DNA from: Proteromonas lacertae
Taxonomy: Eukaryota
Assembly (NCBI GenBank): GCA_002245135.1
Contig: NGBS01000027.1
Location: 62,001 to 109,085, forward strand
Direction: 5' to 3'
Length of the DNA stretch: 47,085 nt
Positions 2,340-47,085 of the stretch are shown piece by piece. The stretch's first letter is position 1, and every line of letters begins with the position of its first letter. Under the pieces are notes generated by a model. The model made no database searches and was not told the DNA's origin. It saw nothing but the letters and a program-made list of their open reading frames with translations. Made by a program: the position numbers and the translations under genes.

Positions 2340-2369
2340 TAAATATAATATTATTTTATATTATTATTT

Positions 2370-6698: not shown

Positions 6699-9507
6699 AT
6701 GAGTTCGAAGAAACATACTTTAAATAATCCAATACTAAAGCGTGCATTACGCAAAAGAAATGCTAGAACTGAAGAGAGTATATATGAAGAAGAAGAAGCA
6801 AAATTTAAGATAGTTGATAAAGATATAATGGTAGGATATTATTAAATTAATCATTGAACTCAGGATGCACAAGAAATCAAAGAACTATTCAAAACTCCAA
6901 TAATGAAACGTGAGCATCAAAACCTAGTGGCTCACTCCGAAGTGGAAAGAGAAAAAGAAAATCGAGCGTGCTAGATATGTTCCATATTTTGGTGGTATAT
7001 ATAAGAATCACGTAATTGAAAAATAGAAGTTGAACAATTCAATGATCCAGAGGTTGGATTAACTATATTCCCCAATAGCCTCACAAAGGTAAAGATGATG
7101 ATATGTGTAACTATGTACAACGAAGAATTCAAAGAATTAGATGATACACTTCGAGGAATTGCTGGTATAATAATATATTATAATGTATTATAGAGAATAT
7201 GGATAATATACATTTAGCTTATGATCTTACTCCTGAAGAAGTCGCAGTATTTGTAGTAATTGATGGTAGAAACAAAGTTAGTCCTACTTTATTCCATGTA
7301 TAAATATTATAACTATTATAACTTGATATATTATAGAAAAGAGAGGATGAAAAATTCTATTTGGTTGAAGATGATGTAAAATTAATGACAGAAGCATATG
7401 AAGAAGATCAACGAAGGTTTAAGAAGTGGAAAAGGCATCAAGATCAATTAAAAAGATATCATTTAGCCAATAAAGATGGTTTAGAAGCACAATTACCAAG
7501 ATTATCATTGCACTTGTTTATACAGAAGAAAGCAATTATAAAAGGAACCAGAGGAAATTTCTCCTATCATACACCATTTAACTTAGTAATAGCAATTAAA
7601 GAAGAAAATGGAGGAAAATTAAACAGTCATTTATGGGCATTAAGAGCATTTGCTAAACAGTTAAATCCAGAATTCTTCTTTCTATTCGATGTTGGTACAA
7701 AACCAGAAAAAACTGCAATTATTCGATGTTATAATGAAATGGTTGCAAATCCTCAAATAGGTGGTTGTTGTGGTGAAATTAAAGTATCAGAATTGAAACA
7801 AACTAGTGCTGTAGTTTGTGCACAGAATTTCGAGTATAAAGTCAGTACATTTATGGAGAAAGCGATGGAAAGTGTTTTTGGATATATTACCGTTTTGCCA
7901 GGAGCTTTTTCAGGATATAGGTATGAAGCTTTAAATGGAACTCCCCTGGATAAATACTTCATTTTAGAAACTCCAGAGTATAGAAAGAATGTAGCTCCCT
8001 TTGAAGCCAATATGTATTTAGCTGAAGATCGTATCATGGGTTTTGAAATGCTGGTTAAAGAGAATAATGATTACATATTACACTATGTATCTGATGCTAC
8101 AGCTGCTACTGATGTACCTCAAACTCTTGGTGTTTTAATTCGTCAAAGACGTAGATGGCTAAATGGTTCTATGTTTGCCTCATTATATGCAATAAAAGAA
8201 TGGCCTCGACTGTATAGTGAAAGTGGTCACAGTTTAATAAGAAAAATACTCTTAACATTTCAATTATTCTATCAAGTGTTGAATACTTCAATAAATCTAC
8301 TTGTTGTCGCTAATATGTTTCTTACCTTTGCTATTGTTATGAAATTGACATTTTATGAAGTATAAAATTATCATCGATATAATTTGAATAGGAAGTTCAA
8401 TTTATTGGATTTGTGTTAGATATGTTTTATATATTCATTATTCTAGTTCAAGTATAAAATTATCATTATTATAATATTATTATTATGTTATATAGATAAT
8501 ATATGCACTTGGAAATGATCCTACTAAAAGTCTAGGAATATATAAATTCTGTTATATTCTATTCGGATCTCTAAACTTATTCTCACTTTTTTGCACTTTT
8601 TGGAATATTAAAAAGATTGATTTTATGGTTATTTATAGTTGTGGTTTAACGGTTATCACTATATTCCTGTGTGCAGTAATACATGGTCAATTTGTGTCAG
8701 TTTTACAAACATTTCCACATTATATGTATATTATCTATATATATATATATATTATTTTCATTTCTAAATAGGTTTATGCTTCCAACAATTATGAATATAT
8801 TCATTATATATTCATTTTGCAATGTTCACGATGTTTCATGGGGTACAAGAGATGCGCATCATATTGAAGATGGTCAAGCAGAGGCTATGAAAGATAAATA
8901 TAAAAGTTTCAGAAGTAAATTATTAGTAATTTGGTTAACTGCGAATTGGGTTTATGCAGCTCTTATTCTACAAGTATATATATATATATATATTATATTA
9001 TGTTTTAATAGTATGGTTCAATTAATGCATTTGCATGGTTCATTGGTGTGGTAATGGGTATTTTAATTGGATATCGTGTAATTGGTTCAATATTGTATAG
9101 AATATTAGAATTATGGAATAGTGGGAAAAAACCAAGTTATGATACAGAAAGTGAAATGTATTTATATATATATATATATTCATATTATTATTATTATTAT
9201 AGTACTCAAAGTGAAAGAAGCTTCCTCTTATTCTTCTTACGATTCTCAACAACAATTTTCAGATATTGAAAGTGGGAGAGTATCTCAAACACCAACTACT
9301 GCTTCAACATTTTCTACTACAACAGGATCATCTGTTTCTTCTTCTAGTACTTATACACCAGCAAGTGGAACATCGCCACCACCAGCAAGTGATAGTGGAA
9401 ATAGTGGTAGTGGTAATAGCAACGGAAGTAATCCAACGAATTTAGTATCAACACCAATTTCGAGTGTTCCAGAAAGTGAATTAACTCCACTTTCTAAAAG
9501 CGTTTAA
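6699..9507 (+). CDS. CHS: Chitin synthase (GT2, division-1/oomycete-like) with Ser/Thr/Pro-rich tail
   Basis: Motifs CVTMYNE, KEENGGKLNSH, DVGTKP, QNFEYK, VLPGAFSGYR, LAEDR, QRRRWLNG, TM helices and DVSWGTR; multiple short introns; an apparent +1 A frameshift near 6958-6961. Confidence 0.95.
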
Positions 9508-9633
9508 AAATTCTCATTCTCTTTATTATTATTATTATTTCTCTCTATGATTATTATTTTTTTATTTTAACTTAATCCAACAAAATGTTAAACAAATCAT
9601 AAATAAATTATATATATATATTATATATACATC

Positions 9634-12504
9634 CTATCCAAACGTTTTTCTACTACTCCTAGCTCTCTTTCTAACTTTCTTGTGCTTATCAGAACTACTA
9701 GCATCAATCATATAACTAGCCATAGCTAACTGCACAGTAGGTGGTAAATGATGCATACTGCTGCTACTAGGTCTTGAACCAGCAAATAAATTCGATTTCC
9801 CTAAAGAAACACTCTTTGATTCTACTCTCATTCCATTTTTATGATTATTTGGTAAAAACATATCTTTATAAGATTCACTAGATGAACCAACATCATAAAT
9901 ATCTTTACCTTCATCTGGCTGTATTGCTATTGTCTTTGATCTAAATCTACTATTATTATTATTAACACCATTGTTGTTAAGATTAGAAGACTTTCTCATA
10001 AATGGAGGAGGTGGAAATGGTGATTGTTGTTGTTGTTGTTGTTGTTGAATTGGTTGTGGAATTTGTTGTGGTGATTTGGATGTATGAATTGGACTAGAAA
10101 TCACTGGATTTAATGTACCATCTAAGAAATCCCAAGGATTATTCTTCCCTACAATATTCAAATTTTTATTGCTATGGGAAGGACTGAGTAATTTGGGAGA
10201 AATGCAACCTGAACCTGATCTTAATCTAGTATTGGAATTACTCTTCCTCACTGGTGATGATGATGATAGAGTAGGAGGTAATGGAGCAGTTGTACTTGGT
10301 GGTATTTGGATTGGCATAGTATTTGATGTTGTTGAAGATGATGAAGATTTCATTGAAACTTGTAATAACTGTTGTTGTGATAAGGTTTGAGTTGTACTTC
10401 TTCTTAATAACATTGATTGAGTTATTGAACCTGTTAAATTATAAGGACTTGCTTCTGTAATAGCTCTTTGACGTTGTGATTGTTGTTTCTGTCTGTAAGA
10501 TGACATATGTGATAAAGATCCACTCATTGTATTACCATTTATATTATTACCATTATCACTGGAAGATATTTTATCCTTCATAAATGTATAGGATATTTTG
10601 CATTTCATACCACTCATAGGATCAAATAAAGGATTATCAAACCATTCAACTATTAATGGAGTTAAAGCGGTACTTACACTACTAAATCTTGATCGAGGTT
10701 CTATTAAATCAGATATTCTATCAGATTGAAATGAATCATTACTATTTCTTTTACTACTGATTTTATAATTCTCTATTTGTAGTCTTTGTAGGTAATATTT
10801 ATCAATTTCATCATTATTAACATCACTTTTATATCTTCTATTCTTAACTCTGATAATCCTCTTAACTATGTGTATTTTGTATGTTTTCTTTGTATAAGCC
10901 TTTGTTCTTAAAGATCTATTCACAAAATCTCTTTCTACTGCTGTATTTCTTTTCATAGGTATAAAATAGGATTGCAATCCAGTAGAATAAGACGAAGCTC
11001 TTCTTGATAAATGTCTTGGAACAGTACTTACATCATTATTATCTAATGAATCTTTTAATTTTTGCTTTCTTTTATTCTCTGCTTTATTTGGATTATCATT
11101 ACAGTCTTTACATATTCTATCTGGTTTCTTAATAAAACATTGTTGACAGACTATTAATCCACATTTATTACAATGATATTTCCTTTGTAGTAATCCAAAG
11201 GTGTTTTTGCATAGATTGCATTGTTTTGCTGAATCAATATTTACAAATACTATAAAAACAGAATAAAAAATGAGAATAAGTAAAAGTGAAAGAGTAAGAT
11301 AAAGAGAATATATATATACGTGGTGCTGGTGTTATCTTATCAAGATGTAATGTTTCATTCGAATATGAATGTGTTAATGATTGAGATATTGCTTCTTTCC
11401 ATTGCAATTTGCTTTCAACAGATGGAAATATGATTATAAACGATTGCTCAATACCATATATCAATAAACTAGTAGGAGCTTCAGGTATAGATTCACACTA
11501 TATATATATAGGCATATTTTAAAATAATAATAATAATAATAATAATATACTCCAACATATTTTACTGCATATTCAAATGAAGATGATTGTGTACAAACGA
11601 CAATTAAATCTGAAAATAAATATAAATAGCGAGACATTTCTTCTTTATTGATTATCTTTACTGCTTTTTCATATATCTAATAATAATAATAATATTAATA
11701 TATACATAAATTCTATGTAGTTCAACAATTGGATATTTTCCTTTCAATCTTTCTTCTATTGATATTAACATTGTTCTATTTCCAGATTGTTCTATGCTTC
11801 CTTTTATCTGTTTACATATATATAATGAATTATCAAAGAGTTGTAATAGTTCGGAATGTAACATTGATGATCGATTTGTGTTCAGCAATATTATTCGGAA
11901 ATATCGTGCTAATCTTATTATATATTGGTAGGGTAAGTAGAAATAATATAACAAATTTGCTTTATTTGTATAAGTTGGGTTAGAAGTGAGTAAATTTGAG
12001 AATAATTTATTTTCTTTCATTAAATCACATATATGAGAGGTAATAATGTTGTAATCATCGAAAAAAGCAAGATCTTTTGATATTTTATCCAAAAATACTT
12101 CATATAAAGAATATAGATCAAACTCTTTCGACAAAAGCCCTTTTTCAAGATCAGTCTATTACAATAACAAAATTAAAAATACCTGGAACTTTAATATGTC
12201 TGTACATAACACTATTAAGTCGATAAACAACCCTTGGAATTCCGTTTCTGTTAATACATGGTTCATTTTAAGCTTTGCATAAATTTCTTTCAGCCATGAC
12301 AGTAGATATCTAGACAATGACAGTCATTATATACTCAAAATCTAGTTGGTAATAATGTTCCTGCTTTACAAAGTCTCGCAGATACTCTAAATAGAAATGC
12401 TTTGCTGACTTGGATCGGACAATAGTTAGCAAAGACATCTCATTCCAAGATAAACTTTTCATTTTATATGAAACGGATATATTATTATTCAATTGGTTTG
12501 TCAT
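9634..12504 (-). CDS. FGD-like RhoGEF (DH)-PH-FYVE protein with long Ser/Gln/Pro-rich tail
   Basis: DH-like helices (FVKQEHYY..., LLYYFYLPYQYIIRLARYFRIIL), PH (RYLYLFSDLIVVC...SFIIIFPSVESKLQWKEAI), FYVE-like (CNLCKNTFGLLQRKYHCNKCGLIVCQQC...ICKDC). Start codon uncertain (may extend to ~12600). Confidence 0.75.
10024..10047. repeat. (TTG/CAA)n poly-Gln microsatellite in the FGD-like tail (mirror near 46388-46413, one unit longer)
   Basis: Direct reading; Q8 versus Q9 in the two ORF translations. Confidence 0.85.
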
Positions 12505-12699
12505 TCGTGTAATAAGGTTGTAACTGTATGTATTATTTAAGTTTTGTTATAATTATTAGTAATACCTTAATACACGTATGCACATATGATAAAACATCAA
12601 GATATACATAATGCTTAATTTTAGTGTTAATTTATAAGATGAATATAATACACCACTTTTATTGTTTATTTATATGAATAAATTTCAATCTATTCTGAA

Positions 12700-13144
12700 T
12701 TATGTGACTGATTTTGACTGTTTTTGGCATTCTGCTATCTCAGTTAATCTAGCTTTCTAATGTACAAATTAAATTTATATTAATACAAGTTCTGGGTCCT
12801 TTCTAGCACATAACAGTACATCTTCAGTCCCTATTTTATTTCTCTTCGCATGATGTGCAAATGCCTCTAAATCTGATGCAAATGTCTCTATGTTGAAATG
12901 ATAAACTAAAGATACCAACATATTCAACTAAAAGTTCTGTCAAAACTCCATAACACTATGTCACATATATGTTTAAAATGAACAGAAATACTTTATCGTT
13001 AATCTTAATACCACTATCTTTCTCTAATTAGTTTTATAACCAATACACTGTTATACCAGTATTTAAACATAACTCACTAATTGAAACATACAAGGAATGT
13101 TTGAAATCCTATAAAATTATCTAATTATTCTATACTTCTTCCAT
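12700..13144 (-). CDS. CENPS: Centromere protein S / MHF1 histone-fold protein (96 aa, 6 exons)
   Basis: Manual splicing of 5 introns (27, 33, 36, 28, 30 nt) gives MEEDFKHSLYVSISELC...FASDLEAFAHHAKRNKIGTEDVLLCARKDPEL, matching the CENP-S signature DLE.FA.HAKR..I..EDV.L.AR. Confidence 0.9.
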
Positions 13145-13248
13145 TTGGAGGTAAAAATCACAAAAATATTAATACATTCTTGACTGTATTTATAATAAAT
13201 ACACTGTATTATAAACACGACATAAAATCACTTTTTTTTCATTCCGCA

Positions 13249-14338
13249 ATGCAATTTTTGATAAACAGATTTCGTATAGATTGGAGTGTTATTCTTTTAG
13301 ATCCTCATCAACCTAAAGAAAAGGAAGTAGTTGTTGAAGAAAATTCACAAGATATGTATTACAGAAAACATCATAAAAGTTTGATATTTTTGTTTCACTT
13401 TCAGAGAATTTAAAGTTCTTCCCTGGCTCAATAACTAGAAGATTAGCAGTTATTGGATTAATATGTAAATTATGAAGAGACTCATTTCTAGTCCTTGTTC
13501 CAATAATATATCGTTACACAGCACTTTCTCACTTCGTATCTGTAGATTGGTTCGTTAAAGAAAAAAGCAATGTCATTGGATGGATTAACAACAATTATTG
13601 GATTTCATATATTATGTATATACATTTATTATTATTATTATTATTAGATATATTGGAGTTATTTCATTCTTCAATATGTTTTGCATTCCAGGTGGTCAAT
13701 TATTATATTTTGCTGCTGGAATTATTTATGGTCCAATTTTAGGTTCATTAATCTGTACAATTGGTATTTCGATTGGTGCTACTGGTTGTTATTTCCTTGA
13801 ATCAAGAGCATTAACATTTAATGAATTAACACCAACTTGGAGAAAAGGATTAGAGTTTGCTACAAGTTTATTAGGTGGAAAACATCAATCTCCATTATAT
13901 TATATGGTTAATGTAGCTTTATTAAGAAATGTATATAATTATTATTATATTCACTTTATTTATTATAGATTCCATTTATTCCCACTTATATTGTCAATTT
14001 ATTACCATTGTATTATGATTTACCTGGTTTTGTTTACTTCATTGGTGTGTTAATTGGAACTATTCCTTATAGTTACTTTATGAATATATCTGGTGATATA
14101 ATGATTGATATATTCCAATATAGAAGTATATATATCTTTTATTAATATTAAAGTAGAAAATCTGATTGATGTTAGTCATAAATTCTCATGGAGATATGAT
14201 TTGTATAGATATGCAGCTCATGAATTATCTGTTATGAAAGTAATAACAGCAGCTGCATTTTATTTGTTCTGGGCAATTGGATTGTTTATTTTAAGAAGTG
14301 CTCTTCATCACAAAGTACTTGTTGTTCATAAAGAATAG
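13249..14338 (+). CDS. VTT/DedA (SNARE-associated, TMEM41/Tvp38-like) membrane protein
   Basis: 'FCIPGGQLLYFAAGIIYGPILGSLICTIGISIGATGCYF', 'LLR-FPFIP', 'YFIGVLIGTIPYS'; several short introns. Confidence 0.8.
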
Positions 14339-14439
14339 ATATTTCCTATTTTTATTCAACACTTGAAAAAAAACAAATTATTATTATTATGAATATACAA
14401 AACAAAAATAGATTGTTATTATTATTCTTGATTTGGATT

Positions 14440-15133
14440 TTATTTTTTCTCTGGGCTTTCATACACAATAGGTTTTGAACATAGATCTATTTTTCCTAAT
14501 ACATTTATAAACTCTTCTTCATTTGATAAACTCACAAACCACTTTGTTAAACTTGGGAATTTCTTTCTATAATCTTCATCGAATAAATACTGAAAATGGT
14601 AAACAACTGTACACATCAATACAATATCAGCTAATGTGATTCTATTACCTACAACATACTCTTTATCCATTAAATGATCATCTAATATTTTTAACAATCC
14701 TTCCATTTTCTGTTTGGCCTCATCTTCTTTTTCTTTATTATATTTAGCACATCCTACTAATGGTAAATACCAAGCATCAGCTGCAGGTTCAAGTAAAGTA
14801 TTTGACCATTCACACCATTCATCAACCAATCCCTCATCATAAAATGTTTCACCACATAATCCTACATCACGACGCATTCTAGCTATATATTTAGCTATTG
14901 AATTACTACCATAAACACACCCTTTACTAGTCTCTAGAGTTGGTACACCACCATTTGGATTCTTTTTTAAATAGTCTTCAGTCTTATTATCTTCACCCAT
15001 TTTAAATGGAGGAATATTTAGTTTTATATTGCAGTATTGCGATGTTATAATTGCTTTAGCTGCTTTATTATTATTCGCATATGTGTAAAGAGTCTATTGG
15101 ATTGTATAAAATAGAAATTTATACAAGTACCAT
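14440..15133 (-). CDS. Glutathione S-transferase of the EF1Bgamma N-terminal type (no C-terminal EF1G domain)
   Basis: ATG 15133, one 31-nt intron; KKNPNGGVPTLET, SNSIAKYIAR, YVVGNRITLADIV, FPSLTKWF. Confidence 0.85.
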
Positions 15134-15195
15134 TGAATAAAACAGAGAAAAAGAAAAGTGTAACGACTATCTTTTTGAAAATTATAAAACCTTAA

Positions 15196-18100
15196 ATGAA
15201 GAAATCTTTTGCAGATGATGTATTATCCTCATTATTACCATGTAATACTCATGTATATTAGCATAATATTATTTATAGATAAAAGAGAAAGTAGAAAAGA
15301 GTGTTTATGAAATAGATTTGGTGTTACAACATCAAAATGAGATAAGAATGATGAAAGTAGTAAATGTTCAAAGAATCGAAGAAAATAGAATATCAGAATA
15401 CTTAGAGAATAACTCATTACTGATAGAAGGTTGTTTATCCTTCATTTATCCTTCTCATGTGATTCACTCGAGTATTGAAGGTGATTATATGTTAATATTA
15501 AGAGGATATTACTCGAGAGACTTAGAACAGATTACTCAAAGTAAATCTTTTTCAAGTGATGATATATGTAAAATGATTGTGTTATTATGTAATATTTTGA
15601 TGATATTGAATGATTATTGTTTAGTATTAAGGAATTTGAAGAGTAGTAACATAATATATGAAGAAAATGGAGAAATGAAGTTATGTGATTTATTGTTGAA
15701 TGAATTGAGAAAATATGAAGATATGAGATTGTATGATATTTGTTTCAAAAGCCCAGAAGAGTTGAATGGATATGAATGTAATGAGAGAAGTGTGATTTGG
15801 TCAATTGGCTGTATATTATATGAAATGATTTGTAAGAAATTACCATTCAATGAAGATAATGATATCAAAAGAACAGTTAATAATGTCATGAGATGTAAAC
15901 ACAGTTTAGATGTAGAATGTGATGATATGATGAATGAGTTGGTCAGTAAGTTGTTAAAAGTGAAAAGTAAAGATAGATTGAGTTTAAAAGAGTTGAGAGA
16001 AGAGATGATAAAAATGAGTGAAATATTGAAAGATGATAAAAATAATATGATGATATGTAAAGAAAGAAAAGAGTTATTGTTTAATAATAATAATGCAATA
16101 GTAATATCCCCCAATATTTCATATCAAATACAATATTATCTTCAATATAATAAATATGAAAGTATAAATGTTATATATAAAGAATAGAACTTAGAGATAA
16201 ATTGATAGAATCATTTAATCATCAATATAGTGACAGAATACTAGCTATACTATTGATGATGAAATTATATAAAGAAGATAATACAATAAAATATAAACTG
16301 AAATTCCAAAATCGTCACCAATGTAAAGTGGTTAAACAGTCTTATTTAGATGATATGATATTTGATATTAATACTGATTATTATGACAAAGAAACAATCT
16401 ATAGTAATGTAAGATGTGTTTGTTTCTGTGAAGAAGGGGTATATTATTTACTGAGAATATTAAAACTAATAAATCCAACAAAAATCAAAATTAGTATTTT
16501 TTTAATACTTTTATTATATAATACATAGAGATTAACATTCTATTATCATGTCAATCATTTTTTGGATCATTTTTTTCTCAATTATATAATCTAAATCAGT
16601 TAGATTTATCATGGTGTGAAATTACCTATCACTTTATTGAAACATTTGTTAAATCAATTCCATTGACAAGATTGAAATGTTTAGATCTGTCATGTATCTA
16701 TTATATATATATATAATGAAATAGTTAATCCAATTGGTTCAAAAGGCTTCAAATTATTACTTCCATATTTACATTTATTAATCAACTTTAAGAATGAATT
16801 GAATCTTAGAGGAATGAATTTAAATGATGAATCAATGATGTTATTATCAAAAAAGTTATATAAATATCCAAATCTTAGCAAAATAGATGTTGTATTCAAC
16901 AATAATATTCATTCAAAAGGATTAGAAACATTATTCTCCAAATGTACAAATATATATTGTAATCCATGTAAAGAATTACTTGTTAATAAAAATATACCAG
17001 TTTTGTTCAATAATTTAAACTCATTAAATCTTAGTAACTTAGACATTAATGATAATGTTTTTAATTCTTTCATTTCTTTAAGATCAAATGAATTAAAAGA
17101 AACAGTAGAGCTGGATTTGAGAAGTATAATTTGATGTTATTATTATATTTTCTATAGATAATAAATTATCATATAAAAGTATAAAAACACTGATTAACAA
17201 CTTATCTTCATTTCCCAGTCTTAAATACCTTTATCTATGTGGAAATGAAATAGGAGATGCAGGAATGAAATTATTATCTCCACATATACATTTATTGAAA
17301 GATAAATATCATGATGATATTATTAACTGCTCAAGTATAACTATTATTATTTATTAAGTTTTGAATAGAAATGGGATTATCTTCAAAGGGGTTAGAATAT
17401 TTGTTGGGAGGTTTAAAAAATAATAATAGTAAAATAGAAGATGATGAAGAAGAAGAAAATGGGGAAGAAGAAGAAGAGGAGGAGGAAGACGAAGAAGGTG
17501 ATGATGATGATGATGGGAAGGAGAATATGTATAAACTTGATATAAGCGATAATAATATAAATTCGGAAGGAATAAAGCATTTGATGAATTATATGATGGA
17601 AAATGAAAATATAGAAAACTTGATTATTCACAGTATATATTTGAGTATTATATATAATAGATAATCCTATTGGTAGTATTGGATTTGGATATTTATTAGG
17701 ATCTTTAAAACTATTGATCAATGATGGTGATGATAATGCGTTAGAATTTAATTTAAGTAATACATTAATAGATGATGAATGTGTACTATTGTTGGTAGAT
17801 GAAATACATTCAATTGAAGACTGTGATAGAATAAATCTGAGTGAAAATCAAATTGGAATAAAAGGATTAAAATCCATCTGTTCGAAGTCATTAGAAAATA
17901 AATACATTCCATTCATACAAATGAAATGTTCATCATGGACGAATCAAGAATTGAAGTATTATTTGAACTATTGCAAAAATAAATCAGCAATATCAATTGA
18001 TTTTTCTAGTATAATATCTAAATTGTTTTAATGTAATAGATTTGAATATTAAAGATTCTCACATTTGCTTAATAAAACAGATTAACTATGAATATCTTGA

Positions 18101-18606: not shown

Positions 18607-18849
18607 CTGAAATTCTGAGTTAATAATGTAAATTTTGAAAAAATAATGTCAAGCTTTTATGGTTTGAGGAGTGTGTATTTTGTTGTATTTTATAATTTTC
18701 ACACTTATATTCAGTTTGAGTAAATTAATTCAATGTTATATCTTATTATTGTGTGTGGTTAATCTGTTGGTCAAGTTGGAAGTATATATACAAACGTATT
18801 TACTGAATGATCTCTGTAGATGAAAAGAAATAATTAATATAAAATATAT

Positions 18850-20520: not shown

Positions 20521-20588
20521 TTTCTAAACGAATATATTGTCAAAATAGATTGTAATAATCATCATTTTCTCATTATATATAGATAGAA

Positions 20589-29302: not shown

Positions 29303-29316
29303 TCAGAAATTATTTA

Positions 29317-34526: not shown

Positions 34527-34615
34527 AACTCATTCTAACATTTTATATTCTTATATTCTCATTATCATCATCATATTTATGTGTTTTTATGAAATAATAC
34601 AAAAACAAAAGAATA

Positions 34616-35749: not shown

Positions 35750-35817
35750 TTCTATCTATATATAATGAGAAAATGATGATTATTACAATCTATTTTGACA
35801 ATATATTCGTTTAGAAA

Positions 35818-37489
35818 ATGATATTTTTGTTTTTTTGTTTTTTTTATCTATCTGCACTTCTGCTTAAGTGAATCAACACTAAAAATATGGCCCTATCCTA
35901 ATAAATATAGTCGTGGAAATACCGATTTATTTGTTAGAGGTTTTTCTTTTGAATTTAAAAGTGAAATATCCTGTAAAGATTTAGAAGATTCTTTCTCAAG
36001 ATACAAGGCAATAATATTTGGAGAACATGAAGAAGAAGGTGATATTAGTTCTTCTTTTTTAAGTTCTGTTATAGTGAGAGTTGATGATTGTAATGCTGAT
36101 TTACAAGTATTTCAATATTTTGATATGAAAATAATAATAATAATAGATGGGAGTAGATGAGAGTTATTCTTTAAATATCACAGTTTCTCCTCCAAGTGCA
36201 ATAATAGAAGCTTCTACAGTGTATGGTGCATATTATGGATTAGAGACCTTTTCTCAGTTAGTGACATATAACTCAACAAGAAAACAATATATAATTCATG
36301 ACTCACCTTGGATAATCTCTGATAAACCATATTTTGCAGTATTAATTATATAATAAATGTGTATAATAGTATCGAGGAGTATTAATAGATTCAGTTCGTC
36401 ACTTTTTACCCAAAAGAATCTTAAAGAAAGTAATAGACAGTTTAAGTTATGCGAAATTCAATACATTACATTGGCATTTAAGTGATAATCAAGCATTTGT
36501 AGCTGAGATAAAATCTTTACCGAAGTTTTGGGATTCTAGTTATGATAATGCATCAAGATATACACAAGTATAAATAAATAAATAAATTTGTTTTTATTTA
36601 TTTAGAAAGAAATGAAAGATATAATAGAATATGCTCGAAAGAGAGGTATAAGAATAATTCCTGAAATTGATATTCCTGGCCATATGATGTCATGGTGTAA
36701 AGAATGTATAAATTATTAATTATTATATAAATAGATCCTGAAGTATGTCCAAGTGAAACATGTTTAGAACCATTAGATCCAAGTAGTAATTACACAATGC
36801 CTTTATTAAAACAATTATTTGGTGAAATATCTTCATTATTTCCTGATAATTATATTCATTTAGGTGGTGATGAAGTATCAATGAAGTGTTGGAATGAAAC
36901 TCCTCGTATAAAAGAGTGGATGAATAAACATGGATATGATGTAACTGATACTTATAAATATATGGTTGATAATAGTCATAAAATAATATTAAGTAATAAT
37001 AAAAAGACAATGAATTGGGAAGAAGTAGTAACTCATATTCCAAAAGGAATAAATAATACTGAATCAATAATTCAAATCTGGTTAGGTGGAACAAGTACAA
37101 TGTCAATAATCAATCGTGGATTTAATGTGATAATATCAAAGAAATGGTATTTAGATGATTTGAATAACAACTGGGAAGTATTTTATAATAATGATCCATT
37201 AAATGGAATTGATGATAAAGAAAAAGAAAAGAAAGTATTAGGAGGTGAAGCTTGTATGTGGGGTGAAACAGTAGATAGTTCTGTAATATTTAATACAATT
37301 TGGCCAAGAGCAGCAAGTGTAAGTGAAAGATTATGGAGTAATCCAGAGAATTTGAATGTAGAAAAAGCGAAAGATCGATTATTATGGTTTCGATGTTTAT
37401 TGAATGAAAGAGGAATAGAAGCTGCTCCAGTTTTGAATGAAGTTGGCAGAAGTGCTCCAAGTGAAGCTGGTGGATGTTTATGTCAATAA
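35818..37489 (+). CDS. GH20 beta-hexosaminidase, copy 2 (extra T in the signal-peptide T-run)
   Basis: Mirror of 18850-20520 with HLGGDEV. Confidence 0.92.
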
Positions 37490-37732
37490 ATATATTTTAT
37501 ATTAATTGTTTCTTTTCATCTACAGAGATCATTCAGTAAATACGTTTGTATATATACTTCCAACTTGACCAACAGATTAACCACACACAATAATAAGATA
37601 TAACATTGAATTATTCTATTCAAACTGAATATAAGTGTGAAAATTATAAAATACAACAAAATACACACTCCTCAAACCATAAAAGCTTGACATTATTTTT
37701 TCAAAATTTACATTATTAACTCAGAATTTCAG

Positions 37733-39659
37733 TTATTTAATGTTGAAGAATTCTTTACTTAATTCTTTCTTTTCTTCTTCTGAAATTCCATCTATTTTTA
37801 TTATTCCAATTGATGAAAATGTTTCTAAAAATGATTTTAATTCTGATTTATCTACATCTTCTTTCAATGTTATTGATAATTCTTGCAAATCTTGAAAATA
37901 CTTTTGATTTTCATTAAATAATTTCAATCCTTTTTCATTTAATTCATTTGCTGAAAGATTTATCTGTTTTAATAGTTCATAATCTCTTAATCTTTCTATC
38001 AGCATCTTTAATCCGTTTTCACTCATTCCAATATCTATTCATATCATAAAAGATGCAATATTAATAATATACTTGAAATATCAAATACAAAATCATTACA
38101 ACCATAACCTTCTTCTATAAATATTTCTAAATTACTACATATTATCTCTACTCCTTCATCTCCAATTGGATTATTGTTAATTGAAATATATTGTTTTGGA
38201 TGCTTTAATGAGGAATCCATCAATTCTTTTAATCCTTTAGAACTAGTTCTATTATTAGATAAATCAAGTGTTAAATAATCAATCTTCTTAATTAATCTAA
38301 TGTGATAATCGTTAATATTCATATCTATTTCATTATAACATATATTCTATACTTGAAAAATCATATTCTTTATCAAAATAATGTCTCTTCTTTTTGGCAC
38401 AATACTTCAAATAATATTCCAATTCTTCATTTGTCCATAATGAATATCTCATTTCGATAAAAGGATATTCTTCATCTTCTATTGATTTAGAACAAATTGA
38501 TTTTAATCCTTTCATACTAATATTATTCCCTTTTAGATTAATACAGTAGCATTCTTCTGATAAATCTATTTCATCTATTAACAACATCACACATTCATCA
38601 TCTATTAATATATTACTCAAATTAAGATTATATATATCATCACGATCTTTTGCTACCATCATTAAATTCTCAATTAATAATTTAAATCCAACATTTCCAA
38701 TTGGATTATCTATTATATATAATACTCAAATATATACTGTGAATAATCAAGTTTTCTATATTTTCATTTTCCATCATATAATTCATCAAATGCTTTATTC
38801 CTTCTGAATTTATATTATTATCGCTTATATCAAGTTTATACATATTCTCCTTCCCATCATCATCATCACCTTCTTCTTCTTCTTCCTCCTCCTCCTCTTC
38901 TTCTTCTTCCCCATTTTCTTCTTCTTCATCATCTTCTACTTTACTATTATTATTTTTTAAACCTCCCAACAAATATTCTAACCCCTTTGAAGATAATCCC
39001 ATTTCTATTCAAAACTTAATAAATAATAATAGTTATACTTGAGCAGTTAATAATATCATCATGATATTTATCTTTCAATAAATGTATATGTGGAGATAAT
39101 AATTTCATTCCTGCATCTCCTATTTCATTTCCACATAGATAAAGGTATTTAAGACTGGGAAATGAAGATAAGTTGTTAATCAGTGTTTTTATACTTTTAT
39201 ATGATAATTTATTATCTATAGAAAATATAATAATAACATCAAATTATACTTCTTAAATCCAGCTCTACTGTTTCTTTTAATTCATTTGATCTTAAAGAAA
39301 TGAAAGAATTAAAAACATTATCATTAATGTCTAAGTTACTAAGATTTAATGAGTTTAAATTATTGAACAAAACTGGTATATTTTTATTAACAAGTAATTC
39401 TTTACATGGATTACAATATATATTTGTACATTTGGAGAATAATGTTTCTAATCCTTTTGAATGAATATTATTGTTGAATACAACATCTATTTTGCTAAGA
39501 TTTGGATATCTATATAACTCTTTTGATAATAACATCATTGATTCATCATTTAAATTCATTCCTCTAAGATTCAATTCATTCTTGAAGTTGATTAATAAAT
39601 GTAAATATGGAAGTAATAATTTGAAGCTTTTTGAACCAATTGGATTAACTATTTCATTA

Positions 39660-39705
<46 letters not shown>

Positions 39706-41214
39706 AATAATAAATACATGAGAGATCTAAACATTTCAATCTTGTCAATGGAATTGATTTAACAAATGTTTCAATAAAGTGATAGGTAATTTCACACCAT
39801 GATAAATCTAACTGATTTAGATTATATAATTGAGAAAAAAATGATCCAAAAAATGATTGACATGATAGTGGAATGTTAATCTCTATGTATTATATAATAA
39901 AAGTATTAAAAAAATACTAATTTTGATTTTTGTTGGATTTATTAGTTTTAATATTCTCAGTAAATAATATACCCCTTCTTCACAGAAACAAACACATCTT
40001 ACATTACTATAGATTGTTTCTTTGTCATAATAATCAGTATTAATATCAAATATCATATCATCTAAATAAGACTGTTTAACCACTTTACATTGGTGACGAT
40101 TTTGGAATTTCAGTTTATATTTTATTGTATTATCTTCTTTATATAATTTCATCATCAATAGTATAGCTAGTATTCTGTCACTATATTGATGATTAAATGA
40201 TTCTATCAATTTATCTCTAAGTTCTATTCTTTATATATAACATTTATACTTTCATATTTATTATATTGAAGATAATATTGTATTTGATATGAAATATTGG
40301 GGGATATTACTATTGCATTATCATTATTAAACAATAACTCTTTTCTTTCTTTACATATCATCATATTATTTTTATCATCTTTCAATATTTCACTCATTTT
40401 TATAGTTTCTTTTTTCAACTCTTTCAAACTCAATCTATCTTCACTTTTCACTTTTAACAACTTACTGACCAACTCATTCATCATATCATCACATTCTACA
40501 TCTAAACTGTATTTACATCTCATGACATTATTAACTGTTCTTTTGATATCATTATCTTCATTGAATGGTAATTTCTTACAAATCATTTCATATAATATAC
40601 AGCCAATTGACCAAATCACACTTCCCTCATTACATTCATATCCATTCAACTCTTCTGGGCTTTTGAAACAAATATCATACAATCTCATATCTTCATATTT
40701 TCTCAATTCATTCAACAATAAATCACATAACTTCATTTCTCCATTTTCTTCACATATTATGTTACTACTCTTCAAATTCCTTAATACTAAACAATAATCA
40801 TTCAATATCATCAAAATATTACATAATAACACAATCATTTTACATATATCATCACTTGAAAAAGATTTACTTTGAGTGATCTGTTCTAAGTCTCTCGAGT
40901 AATATCCTCTTGTTATTAACATATAATCACCTTCAATACTCGAGTGAATCACACGAGAAGGATAAATGAAGGATAAACAACCTTCTATCAGTAATGAGTT
41001 ATTCTCTAAGTATTTTGATATTCTTTTTTCTTCATTTCTTTGAACATTTACTACTTTCATCATTTTTATCTCATTTTGATGTTGTAACACCAAATCTATT
41101 TCATTAACATCTTTTCTACTTTCTCTTTTATCTATAAATAATATTATGCTAACATACATGAGTATTAAATGGTAATAACCAGGATAATACATCATCTGCA
41201 AAAGATTTCTTCAT
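37733..41214 (-). CDS. Pseudokinase-LRR, copy 2 (frameshift near 41110; two LRR exons strongly diverged)
   Basis: Mirror of 15196-18606. Confidence 0.78.
39665..39702. repeat. Intronic (TA)n microsatellite, expanded relative to the left-arm copy near 16701-16714
   Basis: Direct reading; another (TA)n lies at ~3968-3991. Confidence 0.85.
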
Positions 41215-41276
41215 TTAAGATTTTATAATTTTCAAAAAGATAGTCGTTACACTTTTCTTTTTCTCTGTTTTATTCA

Positions 41277-41970
41277 ATGGTGCTTGTATAAATTAATATT
41301 TTATACAATTCAATAGACTCTTTATACATATGCGAATAATAATAAAACAGCTAAAGCAATTATAACATCGCAATACTGCAATATAAAACTAAATATTCCT
41401 CCATTTAAAATGGGTGAAGATAATAAGACTGAAGACTATTTAAAAAAGAATCCAAATGGTGGTGTACCAACTCTAGAGACTAGTAAAGGGTGTGTTTATG
41501 GTAGTAATTCAATAGCTAAATATATAGCTAGAATGCGTCGTGATGTAGGATTATGTGGTGAAACATTTTATGATGAGGGATTGGTTGATGAATGGTGTGA
41601 ATGGTCAAATACTTTACTTGAACCTGCAGCTGATGCTTGGTATTTACCATTAGTAGGATGTGCTAAATATAATAAAGAAAAAGAAGATGAGGCCAAACAG
41701 AAAATGGAAGTATTGTTAAAAATATTAGATGATCATTTAATGGATAAAGAGTATGTTGTAGGTAATAGAATCACATTAGCTGATATTGTATTGATGTGTA
41801 CAGTTGTTTACCATTTTCAGTATTTATTCGATGAAGATTATAGAAAGAAATTCCCAAGTTTAACAAAGTGGTTTGTGAGTTTATCAAATGAAGAAGAGTT
41901 TATAAATGTATTAGGAAAAATAGATCTATGTTCAAAACCTATTGTGTATGAAAGCCCAGAGAAAAAATAA
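41277..41970 (+). CDS. EF1Bgamma-type GST, copy 2
   Basis: Mirror of 14440-15133. Confidence 0.85.
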
Positions 41971-42071
41971 AATCCAAATCAAGAATAATAATAACAATCT
42001 ATTTTTGTTTTGTATATTCATAATAATAATAATTTGTTTTTTTTCAAGTGTTGAATAAAAATAGGAAATAT

Positions 42072-43162
42072 CTATTCTTTATGAACAACAAGTACTTTGT
42101 GATGAAGAGCACTTCTTAAAATAAATAATCCAATTGCCCAGAACAAATAAAATGCAGCTGCTGTTATTACTTTCATAACAGATAATTCATGAGCTGCATA
42201 TCTATACAAATCATATCTCCATGAGAATTTATGACTAACATCAATCAGATTTTCTACTTTAATATTAATAAAAGATATATATACTTCTATATTGGAATAT
42301 ATCAATCATTATATCACCAGATATATTCATAAAGTAACTATAAGGAATAGTTCCAATTAACACACCAATGAAGTAAACAAAAACCAGGTAAATCATAATA
42401 CAATGGTAATAAATTGACAATATAAGTGGGAATAAATGGAATCTATAATAAATAAAGTGAATATAATAATAATTATATACATTTCTTAATAAAGCTACAT
42501 TAACCATATAATATAATGGAGATTGATGTTTTCCACCTAATAAACTTGTAGCAAACTCTAATCCTTTTCTCCAAGTTGGTGTTAATTCATTAAATGTTAA
42601 TGCTCTTGATTCAAGGAAATAACAACCAGTAGCACCAATCGAAATACCAATTGTACAGATTAATGAACCTAAAATTGGACCATAAATAATTCCAGCAGCA
42701 AAATATAATAATTGACCACCTGGAATGCAAAACATATTGAAGAATGAAATAACTCCAATATATCTAATAATAATAATAATAATAAATGTATATACATAAT
42801 ATATGAAATCCAATAATTGTTGTTAATCCATCCAATGACATTGCTTTTTTCTTTAACGAACCAATCTACAGATACGAAGTGAGAAAGTGCTGTGTAACGA
42901 TATATTATTGGAACAAGGACTAGAAATGAGTCTCTTCATAATTTACATATTAATCCAATAACTGCTAATCTTCTAGTTATTGAGCCAGGGAAGAACTTTA
43001 AATTCTCTGAAAGTGAAACAAAAATATCAAACTTTTATGATGTTTTCTGTAATACATATCTTGTGAATTTTCTTCAACAACTACTTCCTTTTCTTTAGGT
43101 TGATGAGGATCTAAAAGAATAACACTTCAATCTATACGAAATCTGTTTATCAAAAATTGCAT
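42072..43162 (-). CDS. VTT/DedA membrane protein, copy 2
   Basis: Mirror of 13249-14338. Confidence 0.8.
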
Positions 43163-43266
43163 TGTGGAATGAAAAAAAAGTGATTTTATGTCGTGTTTAT
43201 AATACAGTGTATTTATTAAAAATACAGTCAAGAATGTATTAATATTTTTGTGATTTTTACCTCCAA

Positions 43267-43711
43267 ATGGAAGAAGTATAGAATAATTAGATAATTTTAT
43301 AGGATTTCAAACATTCCTTGTATGTTTCAATTAGTGAGTTATGTTTAAATACTGGTATAACAGTTTATTGGTTATAAAACTAATTAGAGAAAGATAGTGG
43401 TATTAAGATTAACGATAAAGTATTTCTGTTCATTTTAAACATATATGTGACATAGTGTTATGGAGTTTTGACAGAACTTTTAGTTGAATATGTTGGTATC
43501 TTTAGTTTATCATTTCAACATAGAGACATTTGCATCAGATTTAGAGGCATTTGCACATCATGCGAAGAGAAATAAAATAGGGACTGAAGATGTACTGTTA
43601 TGTGCTAGAAAAGACCCAGAACTTGTATTAATATAAATTTAATTTGTACATTAGAAAGCTAGATTAACTGAGATAGCAGAATGCCAAAAACAGTCAAAAT
43701 CAGCCACATAA
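43267..43711 (+). CDS. CENPS: CENP-S / MHF1, copy 2
   Basis: Same 6-exon structure, frame intact. Confidence 0.9.
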
Positions 43712-43915
43712 TTCAGAATATATTGAAATTTATTCATATAAATAAACTATAAAAGTGGTGTATTATATTCATCTTATAAATTAACACTAAAATTAAGCAT
43801 TATGTATATCTTGATGTTTTATTAGTTTTATCATATGTGCATACGTGTATTAAGGTATTACTAATAATTATAACAAAACTTAAATAATACATACAGTTAC
43901 AACCTTATTACACGA

Positions 43916-46802
43916 ATGACAAACCAATTGAATAATAATATATCCGTTTCATATAAAATGAAAAGTTTATCTTGGAATGAGATGTCTTTGCTAACTATTG
44001 TCCGATCCAAGTCAGCAAAGCATTTTCTATTTAGAGTATCTGCGAGACTTTGTAAAGCAGGAACATTATTACCAACTAGATTTTGAGTATATAATGACTG
44101 TCATTGTCTAGATATCTACTGTCATGGCTGAAAGAAATTTATGCAAAGCTTAAAATGAACCATGTATTAACAGAAACAGAATTCCAAGGGTTGTTTATCG
44201 ACTTAATAGTGTTATGTACAGACATATTAAAGTTCCAGGTATTTTTAATTTTGTTATTGTAATAGACTGATCTTGAAAAAGGGCTTTTTGTCGAAAGAAT
44301 TTGATCTATATTCTTTTATATGAAGTATTTTTTGGATAAAATATCCAAAGATCTTGCTTTTTTCGATGATTACAACATTATTACCTCTCATATATGTGAT
44401 TTAATGAAAGAGAATAAATTATTCTCAAATTTACTCACTTCTAACCCAGCTTATACAAATAAAGCAAATTTGTTATATTATTTCTACTTACCCTACCAAT
44501 ATATAATAAGATTAGCACGATATTTCCGAATAATATTGCTGAACACAAATCGATCATCAATGTTACATTCCGAACTATTACAACTTTTTGATAATTCATT
44601 ATATATATGTAAACAGATAAAAGGAAGCATAGAACAATCTGGAAATAGAACAATGTTAATATCAATAGAAGAAAGATTGAAAGGAAAATATCCAATTGTT
44701 GAACTACATAGAATTTATGTATATATTTATATTATTATTATTATTAATAGATATATGAAAAAGCAGTAAAGATAATCAATAAAGAAGAAATGTCTCGTTA
44801 TTTATATTTATTTTCAGATTTAATTGTCGTTTGTACACAATCATCTTCATTTGAATATGCAGTAAAATATGTTGGAGTATATTATTATTATTATTATTAT
44901 TATTATTTTAAAATATGCCTATATATATATAGTGTGAATCTATACCTGAAGCTCCTACTAGTTTATTGATATATGGTATTGAGCAATCGTTTATAATAAT
45001 ATTTCCATCTGTTGAAAGCAAATTGCAATGGAAAGAAGCAATATCTCAATCATTAACACATTCATATTCGAATGAAACATTACATCTTGATAAGATAACA
45101 CAGCACCACGTATATATATATTCTCTTTATCTTACTCTTTCACTTTTACTTATTCTCATTTTTTATTCTGTTTTTATAGTATTTGTAAATATTGATTCAG
45201 CAAAACAATGCAATCTATGCAAAAACACCTTTGGATTACTACAAAGGAAATATCATTGTAATAAATGTGGTTTAATAGTCTGTCAACAATGTTTTATTAA
45301 GAAACCAGATAGGAATATGTAAAGACTGTAATGATAATCCAAATAAAGCAGCGAATAAAAGAAAGGCAAAAATTAAAAGATTCATTAGATAATAATGATG
45401 TAAGTACTGTTCCAAGACATTTATCAAGAAGAGCTTCGTCCTTATTCTACTGGATTGCAATCCTATTTATACCTATGAAAAGAAATACAGCAGTAGAAAG
45501 AGATTTTGTGAATAGATCTTTAAGAACAAAGGCTTTATACAAAGAAAACATACAAAATACACATAGTTAAGAGAATTATCAGAGTTAAGAATAGAAGATA
45601 TAAAAGTGATGTTAATAATGATGAAATTGATAAATATTACCTACAAAGACTACAAATAGAGAATTATAAAATCAGTAGTAAAAGAAACAGTAATGATTCA
45701 TTTCAAATCTGATAGAATATCTGATTTAATAGAACCTCGATCAAGATTTAGTAGTGTAAGTACCGCTTTAACTCCATTAATAGTTGAATGGTTTGATAAT
45801 CCTTTATTTGATCCTATGAGTGGTATGAAATGCAAAATATCCTATACATTTATGAAGGATAAAATATCTTCCAGTGATAATGGTAATAATATAAATGGTA
45901 ATACAATGAGTGGATCTTTATCACATATGTCATCTTACAGACAGAAACAACAATCACAACGTCAAAGAGCTATTACAGAAGCAAGTCCTTATAATTTAAC
46001 AGGTTCCAATAACTCAATCAATGTTATTAAGAAGAAGTACAACTCAAACCTTATCACAACAACAGTTATTACAAGTTTCAATGAAATCTTCATCATCTTC
46101 AACAACATCAAATACCTATGCCAATCCAAATACCACCAAGTACAACTGCTCCATTACCTCCTACTCTATCATCATCATCACCAGTGAGGAAGAGTAATTC
46201 CAATACTAGATTAAGATCAGGTTCAGGTTGCATTTCTCCCAAATTACTCAGTCCTTCCCATAGCAATAAAAATTGAATATTGTAGGGAAGAATAATCCTT
46301 GGGATTTCTTAGATGGTACATTAAATCCAGTGATTTCTAGTCCAATTCATACATCCAAATCACCACAACAAATTCCACAACCAATTCAACAACAACAACA
46401 ACAACAACAACAATCACCATTTCCACCTCCTCCATTTATGAGAAAGTCTTCTAATCTTAACAACAATGGTGTTAATAATAATAATAGTAGATTTAGATCA
46501 AGACAATAGCAATACAGCCAGATGAAGGTAAAGATATTTATGATGTTGGTTCATCTAGTGAATCTTATAAAGATATGTTTTTACCAAATAATCATAAAAA
46601 TGGAATGAGAGTAGAATCAAAGAGTGTTTCTTTAGGGAAATCGAATTTATTTGCTGGTTCAAGACCTAGTAGCAGCAGTATGCATCATTTACCACCTACT
46701 GTGCAGTTAGCTATGGCTAGTTATATGATTGATGCTAGTAGTTCTGATAAGCACAAGAAAGTTAGAAAGAGAGCTAGGAGTAGTAGAAAAACGTTTGGAT
46801 AG
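43916..46802 (+). pseudogene. FGD-like RhoGEF-PH-FYVE copy 2 with roughly a dozen small indels (pseudogene or unpolished sequence)
   Basis: Mirror of 9634-12504 broken into many ORF fragments, mostly at homopolymers. Confidence 0.6.
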
Positions 46803-46928
46803 GATGTATATATAATATATATATATAATTTATTTATGATTTGTTTAACATTTTGTTGGATTAAGTTAAAATAAAAAAATAATAATCATAGAGAGAAATA
46901 ATAATAATAATAAAGAGAATGAGAATTT

Positions 46929-47085
46929 TTAAACGCTTTTAGAAAGTGGAGTTAATTCACTTTCTGGAACACTCGAAATTGGTGTTGATACTAAATTCGT
47001 TGGATTACTTCCGTTGCTATTACCACTACCACTATTTCCACTATCACTTGCTGGTGGTGGCGATGTTCCACTTGCTGGTGTATAA
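46929..47085 (-). CDS. CHS: 3' end of a second chitin synthase copy (partial)
   Basis: Reverse complement of 9351-9507, ending ...ELTPLSKSV*. Confidence 0.85.
   Translation of the reverse strand, partial: YTPASGTSPPPASDSGNSGSGNSNGSNPTNLVSTPISSVPESELTPLSKSV

What the first reader, a model, noticed from the sequence alone, without database searches (positions are those of the whole stretch)
9351..47085. Giant gene-bearing palindrome: arms >=17 kb around a ~3.5-kb spacer
Seen: nine complete genes plus the chitin synthase 3' end are duplicated in mirror order. The arms carry real substitutions, microsatellite length changes, an 11-bp promoter indel and one strongly diverged block, so this is not a fold-back read of a single molecule. 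Inference: either a true inverted segmental duplication kept similar by recent origin or arm-to-arm conversion, or two haplotypes mis-joined by the assembler.
Basis: seen in the sequence. Interest (0 to 1): 0.72.

Follow-up and report, generated by a model that had tools for sequence, protein, structure and literature searches.

The report
Giant mirror duplication folded beside tRNA
In this assembled sequence, probably from a Blastocystis-like gut protist, at least 17 kb with nine genes is mirrored around a 210-base loop next to a tRNA gene; it likely arose when a chromosome folded back on itself and then lost 2.6 kb from one side, a known kind of rearrangement, but an assembly error joining two chromosome copies is not excluded.

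Summary
The mirror is in the sequence: 9351-26409 matches 29945-47085 (97-99%), nine genes, with no outer end in view. The centre is not a 3.5-kb spacer. A second inverted pair (26442-26795 / 27006-27359: SNF2 tail plus tRNA-Asn) puts the symmetry centre at a 210-bp loop, and the left arm lacks the mirror of 27360-29944 (rest of SNF2/HELLS and an EF-hand gene). Substitutions between arms look biological (78 transitions, 32 transversions; derived changes on both arms; a 75%-identical LRR block open in both). Most one-base indels look like consensus errors (15 of 24 in the last 3.1 kb). Best reading (0.58): a real fold-back palindrome beside a tRNA gene, with a one-sided deletion and patchy arm-to-arm conversion. 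Main rival (0.30): two haplotypes of a diploid joined by a fold-back read. The deletion 354 bp from the fold and the tRNA at the fold favour the first; allele-like divergence and a noisy contig keep the second alive. No reads or genome were available, so neither junction is confirmed. Argonaute and kinase-LRR copies differ mostly in amino acids (7 synonymous, 36 non-synonymous). Known kind of structure; moderate interest.

The parts
1..9350 (.). Left flank, single copy within the window (BTB gene, unknown genes, chitin synthase 5' part); its mirror may simply lie beyond the window end
   Evidence: no long self-match; Pfam
9351..26409 (.). Left arm of the large inverted repeat
29945..47085 (.). 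Right arm; runs to the last base; last 3.1 kb rich in one-base indels
26410..26441 (.). Junction 1: 32-bp filler joining the left arm to the SNF2 tail; source not found in the window
26442..26795 (.). Inner inverted copy, left: last 36 codons and stop of SNF2, tRNA-Asn; 7 substitutions, 0 indels against the right copy
26676..26749 (-). tRNA-Asn(GTT), left copy
26796..27005 (.). Unpaired 210-bp loop, the centre of symmetry; junction 2 at 26795/26796; holds a possible orphan exon on + at 26829-26909
   Evidence: exon test mixed, no homolog, weak ion-channel lead
27006..27359 (.). Inner inverted copy, right (continuous with the SNF2 gene)
27052..27125 (+). tRNA-Asn(GTT), right copy, identical to the left
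27360..29944 (.). 2585-bp segment with no mirror in the left arm: body of the SNF2 gene and an EF-hand gene
27249..29280 (-). SNF2-family helicase, HELLS/DDM1-like by nearest named hits; one frame break near 27490 against a 93% identical homolog; 5' end approximate
29499..29744 (-). Small EF-hand protein gene
9634..12590 (-). FYVE-domain, Ser-rich gene, left copy (mirror about 43820-46800, +); 5' end approximate
12775..12927 (-). CENP-S exon, left copy (mirrored in the right arm)
13676..14053 (+). VTT-domain gene exon, left copy (mirror 42265-42735, -)
   Evidence: E 1e-3, below cut-off
14440..15093 (-). GST/EF-1gamma-like gene, left copy (mirror 41317-41970, +)
15348..18606 (+). Kinase and LRR exons, inferred to be one gene, left copy (mirror 37733-41065, -); most diverged gene between the arms
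17661..18305 (+). Diverged block, 162 substitutions and 6 indels in 645 bp; two LRR exons open in both arms, 57% and 60% amino-acid identity (mirror about 38035-38705)
18850..20520 (-). GH20 hexosaminidase, left copy (mirrored, +)
21317..21721 (+). Rpp40 last exon, left copy (mirror 34616-35203, -)
21811..24767 (-). Argonaute (ArgoN, PAZ, Piwi), left copy (mirror 31576-34526, +)
24929..25999 (+). Intronless ADP-ribosylglycohydrolase, left copy (mirror 30355-31425, -)
26069..26386 (+). Orphan copy of the last kinase-LRR exon (about 80% to 18301-18606), open here, three frame-breaking indels in the mirror 29968-30285

Best explanation
This is likely a real fold-back palindrome: a chromosome probably broke or stalled just past a tRNA-Asn gene, folded back leaving a 210-bp loop, copied at least 17 kb in mirror order, and likely lost 2.6 kb (most of SNF2 and an EF-hand gene) from one arm 354 bp from the fold. 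Shown: the mirror, the 210-bp centre, the tRNA pair, the one-sided gap, the pattern of differences. Inferred: the break, the fold-back, the order of events, that both arms lie on one molecule, and that patchy arm-to-arm gene conversion has since kept most of the arms at about 0.35% divergence while the cut-off inner repeat drifted to 2% and the kinase-LRR gene took in a block from a paralog. The sequence beyond the loop is either kept elsewhere (inverted triplication, or the other homolog) or lost. The effect would be doubled dosage of nine genes with SNF2 and the EF-hand gene left single, and room for the Argonaute and kinase-LRR copies to differ.
For: (1) One centre explains both inverted repeats; there are two new junctions within 390 bp. 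A one-arm deletion next to a palindromic junction is described in yeast amplicons (2 of about two dozen, PMC4689423, passages); an artefact needs a separate heterozygous 2.6-kb deletion to lie by chance 354 bp from a chimeric fold. (2) The fold lies 256 bp from the only tRNA gene in 29.6 kb of non-redundant sequence (about 1-2% by chance, a post hoc estimate); tRNA genes are fork barriers (PMC5295031, passage). (3) Substitutions are biological: 78 transitions to 32 transversions; of 6 amino-acid differences with a clear outgroup state, 3 are derived on each arm; the diverged block keeps open frames in both arms. (4) Divergence is patchy (chi-square p 0.002 over 12 one-kb bins outside the kinase-LRR gene) and highest at the inner edge: 7 of 354 against 46 of 13030, Poisson P 3e-4, and it decays towards junction 1. 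(5) Homolog clusters of SNF2 and Argonaute share two exact contig lengths, 7075 and 7096 (2 of 9 against 14 lengths, simulated P 2e-4), which suggests the two genes are neighbours on one short-read contig in a relative, so the right-hand order is probably ancestral and unmirrored there. (6) Near-identical multi-gene duplicated blocks are reported in Blastocystis ST7 (PMC3129679, passages).
Against: No read, depth or second assembly supports either junction. The contig is noisy: 24 one-base indels between arms and a frame break in single-copy SNF2. The right arm ends at the window end with no outer boundary, in a stretch with 0 substitutions in 1350 bp, which is how a haplotype bubble would also end. 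Arm divergence of 0.3-2% and patchiness fit two alleles equally well, and Blastocystis is reported as diploid. Points 3 and 4 above therefore do not separate paralogs from alleles. Purifying selection between arms is not significant overall (13 synonymous, 42 non-synonymous, dN/dS 1.2). No microhomology or source for the 32-bp filler was found, and the test for a cut gene in the loop was mixed. A stable palindrome needs an outer junction or telomere that is not in view.
Confidence: 0.58

Rival explanations
1. Assembly artefact: the arms are the two haplotypes of a diploid (or two strains of one culture). One haplotype carries a 2.6-kb deletion of SNF2 and the EF-hand gene, and a fold-back chimeric read (missed adapter, follow-on strand or whole-genome amplification) let the assembler turn round at the loop.
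For: Noisy long-read-type consensus; error-rich right end where the arms become identical; allele-like divergence with a hypervariable kinase-LRR gene; both substitutions in the SNF2 remnant are synonymous, as alleles under selection would be (2 of 2); diploidy reported; palindromic reads from amplification or missed adapters are known to put false inverted duplications into assemblies (PMC6218980, passages).
Against: Needs three coincidences: a heterozygous two-gene deletion, a fold 354 bp from it and beside the only tRNA gene, and a haplotype switch within 564 bp of shared sequence. The loop is 210 bp of genome-like sequence rather than a short adapter-sized centre (adapter size recalled, not searched).
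Confidence: 0.3
2. Real and young fusion of the two homologs head to head (or a real short tRNA-centred inverted repeat through which the assembler crossed between haplotypes): junction 2 exists in DNA but the arm differences are allelic, not paralogous.
For: Explains a real fold and allele-like differences together; ODIRA products with sequence from both homologs are described (PMC4689423, abstract passage).
Against: Still needs the 2.6-kb deletion allele to pre-exist next to the fold; a 354-bp repeat is too short to confuse long reads.
Confidence: 0.09
3. Centromere-type inverted repeat or isochromosome centre: the tRNA-flanked centre marks a centromere, which would make a whole-arm mirror stable.
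For: tRNA genes and inverted inner repeats flank fission-yeast centromeres and give isochromosomes (PMC5295031, passages); no outer end is seen.
Against: The centre is 210 bp plus ordinary intact genes at normal composition; no centromeric repeat.
Confidence: 0.03

Closest known systems
Fold-back inverted duplications with a single-copy spacer (human, Hermetz et al., PMC3907307; abstract and two sections read)
   Same: Mirror arms around an unduplicated loop; extra inserted sequence at some junctions.
   Different: Loop here is 210 bp (766-70,466 bp in that series); arms here have diverged 0.3-2%, so if real it is old and inherited; junction microhomology cannot be assessed.
Yeast ODIRA inverted amplicons with secondary deletion of one palindrome arm, and DUP-TRP/INV-DUP (PMC4689423; passages read)
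   Same: A palindromic junction with one arm deleted near the centre.
   Different: There the deletion runs between short repeats and includes the inversion junction; here a 354-bp inner repeat survives and a 32-bp filler of unknown source sits at the break; a third copy is not in view.
Blastocystis ST7 duplicated gene blocks (PMC3129679; passages read)
   Same: Multi-gene blocks about 99% identical in coding DNA (here 55 differences in 9315 coding bases, 99.4%).
   Different: Those blocks are mostly on different scaffolds and not adjacent; this one is an adjacent mirror. The organism here is only inferred to be Blastocystis-like.
Mammalian X/Y palindromes kept alike by arm-to-arm conversion (PMC3723533; passages read)
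   Same: Gene-bearing arms over 10 kb around a unique centre.
   Different: Human Y arms are over 99.9% identical; these are 97-99%, include housekeeping genes, and conversion is not shown.
Leishmania linear amplicons with inverted duplications (PMC4256157, PMC4028189; search listing only)
   Same: Inverted duplications in a protist.
   Different: Those form at pre-existing dispersed repeats and are often extrachromosomal; no such repeat pair can be shown here.
False inverted duplications from palindromic long reads (PMC6218980; passages read)
   Same: Mirror contig from error-prone long reads.
   Different: Arms here differ by 272 substitutions, a swapped block and a 2.6-kb gap, so both arms cannot come from one molecule.

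Membership tests
Fold-back inverted duplication | Inverted arms around a single-copy loop | tested here: met
   210-bp loop 26796-27005
Fold-back inverted duplication | Inverted microhomology at the fold junction | not testable with these tools
   the sequence that lay beyond the loop is not in the window and no relative's locus was obtained
Fold-back inverted duplication | Sequence beyond the fold cut off | tested here: inconclusive
   possible orphan exon in the loop: 0 of 322 non-coding windows score as high with an order-2 model, 8 of 322 with order 3, where an opposite-strand frame scores higher; no homolog
Fold-back inverted duplication | Both arms on one DNA molecule | not testable with these tools
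   no genome held, no runs listed
ODIRA-type inverted triplication with one-arm deletion | One arm deleted next to the palindromic junction | tested here: met
   27360-29944 has no mirror; gap starts 354 bp from the loop
ODIRA-type inverted triplication with one-arm deletion | Clean deletion between short repeats | tested here: not met
   32-bp filler, no repeat pair found at the ends
ODIRA-type inverted triplication with one-arm deletion | Third copy, second junction, distal sequence kept, origin inside | not testable with these tools
   window ends inside the right arm
Conversion-maintained palindrome (mammalian X/Y type) | Arms over 10 kb carrying genes | tested here: met
Conversion-maintained palindrome (mammalian X/Y type) | Arm identity over 99.9% (human Y) | tested here: not met
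   97.2% and 98.7% by BLAST; 110 substitutions in about 16.4 kb outside the block
Conversion-maintained palindrome (mammalian X/Y type) | Arm-to-arm conversion shown across individuals or species | not testable with these tools
   only one sequence; patchy divergence fits but is not specific
Blastocystis ST7-type duplicated block | Host is Blastocystis | tested here: inconclusive
   26% GC, introns of about 30-45 nt, chitin synthase fit a low-GC Blastocystis or a relative; all close homologs are unnamed
Blastocystis ST7-type duplicated block | About 99% coding identity between copies | tested here: met
   55 differences in 9315 coding bases outside the diverged block
Blastocystis ST7-type duplicated block | Copies mostly on different scaffolds, not adjacent | tested here: not met
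   copies are adjacent and inverted
Single-molecule fold-back artefact | Arms identical apart from sequencing error | tested here: not met
   transition-rich substitutions, open 75% block, 2.6-kb gap
Fold-back artefact joining two haplotypes | Fold supported by one or few reads; arms sum to single-copy depth | not testable with these tools
   no runs listed

The most novel reading that the evidence does not exclude
An old, inherited palindrome born by fold-back at a tRNA gene is the birth form of the near-identical multi-gene blocks that cover much of some Blastocystis genomes and whose origin was left open (PMC3129679): arm-to-arm conversion holds housekeeping copies alike while the Argonaute and kinase-LRR copies diversify in protein sequence, and a one-sided deletion keeps the SNF2/HELLS remodeller at single dose.
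Probability: 0.15. Interest if true: 0.68.

Novelty: new member of a known kind. Interest (0 to 1): 0.38.

Why it matters
If real, it is a gene-rich palindrome that has lasted long enough to diverge in a compact protist genome, with its fold, its one-sided deletion and its conversion pattern all readable. It would give a testable origin for the duplicated blocks of Blastocystis, and a natural pair of Argonaute and kinase-LRR copies that differ mostly in amino acids. If it is an artefact, it is a warning that diverged arms do not prove a palindrome in a diploid long-read assembly, and it still records a two-gene deletion allele and a highly diverged LRR allele.

Tried and rejected
No whole genome is held. 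Two scans of metagenome contigs (SNF2, ADP-ribosylglycohydrolase) found no relative. None of 10 window proteins is in the protein collection exactly, so arm variants could not be checked in other assemblies. Earlier scan notes: nothing for this genome, by sequence or by relatives; one note on an animal palindrome. The 30-residue loop peptide: no Pfam hit, no hit among 1.84 billion representatives, only a weak ion-channel lead in the Atlas (scores 0.85, recognition below the threshold); a blank on so short a query shows little. Rfam found only the two tRNAs. The filler at junction 1 has only AT-rich 12-mer matches in the window, taken as chance. dN/dS between arms gave no overall sign of purifying selection. 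Rejected: both arms from one molecule (too many biological differences); a 3.5-kb unique spacer (inner repeat); one arm as a decaying copy (derived changes on both arms); Entamoeba as host (intron-rich genes with GTAT-type donors and a lone tRNA gene; the Entamoeba traits are recalled, not from a call). Two of 8 Argonaute sites had homolog residues matching neither arm and 2 lay in a low-complexity indel region; these 4 were left out of the polarity count.


Full report
OBSERVATION. Self-BLAST shows the mirror: 9351-16715 against 47085-39694 at 98.7% and 16695-26405 against 39681-29955 at 97.2%. The right arm reaches the last base of the window, so no outer boundary is seen. Pfam names nine mirrored genes: FYVE-domain gene, CENP-S, VTT (below cut-off), GST/EF-1gamma-like, kinase-LRR (joining of its exons inferred), GH20 hexosaminidase, Rpp40, Argonaute and ADP-ribosylglycohydrolase. 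The window is 26% GC with introns of about 30-45 nt in the chitin synthase gene (6 inferred by eye). This fits a low-GC Blastocystis or a relative: published low-GC members have 21-27% GC, short variable introns and normal stop codons (PMC12129017, passages), and Blastocystis encodes a chitin synthase (PMC5608401, passage). Every close homolog found is unnamed, so the lineage is an inference.

THE CENTRE. The supposed 3.5-kb spacer holds a second inverted pair, 26442-26795 against 27006-27359, 354 bp with 7 substitutions and no indel. It carries the last 36 codons of the SNF2 gene and a tRNA-Asn(GTT), identical in both copies. Read from the right end inwards the order is arm, orphan LRR exon, EF-hand gene, SNF2, tRNA, 210-bp loop; then back out tRNA, SNF2 tail, a 32-bp filler, orphan LRR exon, arm. 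So there is one palindrome centred on 26796-27005, and the left side lacks the mirror of 27360-29944 (2585 bp). This gives two new junctions, at 26410-26441 and at 26795/26796. The filler has no convincing source in the window. The loop may hold an exon whose gene is cut off, but the coding test was mixed (order 2: 0 of 322 non-coding windows as high; order 3: 8 of 322, and an opposite frame scored higher), and searches gave no homolog and one weak lead. Homolog clusters of SNF2 and of Argonaute list the same two contig lengths, 7075 and 7096 (2 of 9 lengths against 14; simulated P 2e-4). I infer that the two genes are neighbours on one short-read contig in a relative; a collapsed palindrome would normally break such a contig, so the relative probably lacks the mirror. 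The contigs themselves could not be fetched.

DIFFERENCES BETWEEN THE ARMS. Outside 17660-18305 there are 110 substitutions (78 transitions, 32 transversions), 24 one-base indels and 9 longer indels; the block has 162 substitutions and 6 indels. Fifteen of the 24 one-base indels lie in the last 3.1 kb of the right arm, where they break a frame open for 565 codons on the left; single-copy SNF2 also has a frame break against a 93% identical homolog. These look like long-read consensus errors, worst at a thinly covered contig end (inference). The substitutions look biological. Of 10 amino-acid differences tested against homologs, 6 had a clear state: 3 derived on the left, 3 on the right. The diverged block keeps two LRR exons open in both arms at 57% and 60% identity, so it is likely a swap with a paralog. 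In 9315 coding bases there are 13 synonymous and 42 non-synonymous differences, dN/dS 1.2, no overall sign of purifying selection; Argonaute plus kinase-LRR give 7:36, the other genes 6:6 (Fisher p 0.024, post hoc). Divergence is patchy (0% at 9351-10700, 0.8% at 10701-13300, 0.1% at 13301-15050, 1.9% in the kinase-LRR 5' part, 0.3% at 18751-26080; chi-square p 0.002) and the inner repeat, at 2%, is above the 0.35% arm rate (Poisson P 3e-4).

MECHANISM. Fold-back at a break gives mirror arms around an unduplicated loop (PMC3907307, abstract and sections 8 and 9; PMC7999016, passages). One-arm deletions beside a palindromic junction were found in 2 of about two dozen yeast amplicons (PMC4689423, passages). 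tRNA genes are fork barriers (PMC5295031, passage), and here the fold lies 256 bp from the only tRNA gene in 29.6 kb of non-redundant sequence. Spontaneous inverted triplications are enriched in AT-rich DNA of a fungus (10.1101/2025.01.14.632981, abstract). I therefore read this as a real fold-back palindrome with a one-sided deletion, homogenised in patches by arm-to-arm conversion, as in mammalian palindromes (PMC3723533, passages). The break, the order of events and the conversion are inferred.

THE RIVAL. Blastocystis isolates show a diploid signal, palindromic long reads create false inverted duplications (PMC6218980, passages), and this contig is noisy. Two haplotypes joined by one fold-back read would give arms with real substitutions, a hypervariable LRR allele and an end where the haplotypes become identical, all as seen. 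The patchiness, the transition bias and the two-sided derived changes do not separate paralogs from alleles. What counts against the artefact is that it needs a heterozygous two-gene deletion 354 bp from a chance fold, beside the only tRNA gene, with a haplotype switch inside 564 bp. I put the odds at 0.58 real and old, 0.30 artefact, 0.09 real junction with allelic arms, 0.03 centromeric. No reads could be laid: no genome is held and no run was listed.

COMPARISON AND NOVELTY. It works like a fold-back inverted duplication with a secondary one-arm deletion; membership cannot be completed without reads. It matches the Blastocystis ST7 duplicated blocks in coding identity (99.4% against about 99%) but those are mostly on different scaffolds, and their origin was left open (PMC3129679, passages). 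The listings of four searches (the top 20 or fewer shown each) held no paper describing a nuclear gene-bearing palindrome in Blastocystis or Proteromonas, and the long-read Blastocystis paper has no occurrence of 'invert' or 'palindrom' in its main text; supplements were not examined and subscription papers are outside the library. Inverted amplicons are known in Leishmania (PMC4256157, PMC4028189, search listing only).

VERDICT. Observation partly confirmed, with the centre redrawn. New member of a known kind if real; interest 0.38. The most novel reading, tRNA-anchored fold-back palindromes as the source of Blastocystis duplicated blocks with diversifying Argonaute and kinase-LRR copies, has probability about 0.15 and would deserve about 0.68.

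Noticed in passing
window 21811-24767 and 31576-34526: Argonaute copies differ by 9 non-synonymous against 2 synonymous bases (3 of the 9 lie in a low-complexity indel region); one left-arm change replaces a glycine shared by 15 of 15 aligned homologs near the PAZ domain.
   Followed up: partly
window 15348-18606 and 37733-41065: Kinase-LRR copies: 27 non-synonymous against 5 synonymous bases outside the block, and a 645-bp block of two LRR exons at 57-60% amino-acid identity, open in both arms; likely taken from a paralog. Argonaute plus kinase-LRR 7:36 against other genes 6:6, Fisher p 0.024, grouping chosen after seeing the data.
   Followed up: partly
window 26069-26386 and 29968-30285: Orphan last exon of the kinase-LRR family sits just inside the ADP-ribosylglycohydrolase gene, at the edge of the deletion; open on the left, broken on the right.
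   Followed up: partly
window 24929-25999: ADP-ribosylglycohydrolase is intronless in an intron-rich genome and lies where the body of an LRR gene might be expected; origin not studied.
   Followed up: partly
window 27481-27503: Frame break in single-copy SNF2 against homologs; an error or a real lesion.
   Followed up: partly
window 26829-26918: Possible orphan exon in the loop with a weak ion-channel lead.
   Followed up: yes
window 284-2340: BTB-domain gene with Ig-like and further exons, composition like the kinase-LRR gene; possibly an expanded family.
   Followed up: no
window 2400-6344: Two genes with no Pfam match in the exons tested (2555-3370 on -, about 3430-6344 on +).
   Followed up: no
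window 6690-9507: Chitin synthase with both Chitin_synth_1 and Chitin_synth_2 matches and a Ser-rich tail; only the tail is mirrored within the window.
   Followed up: no
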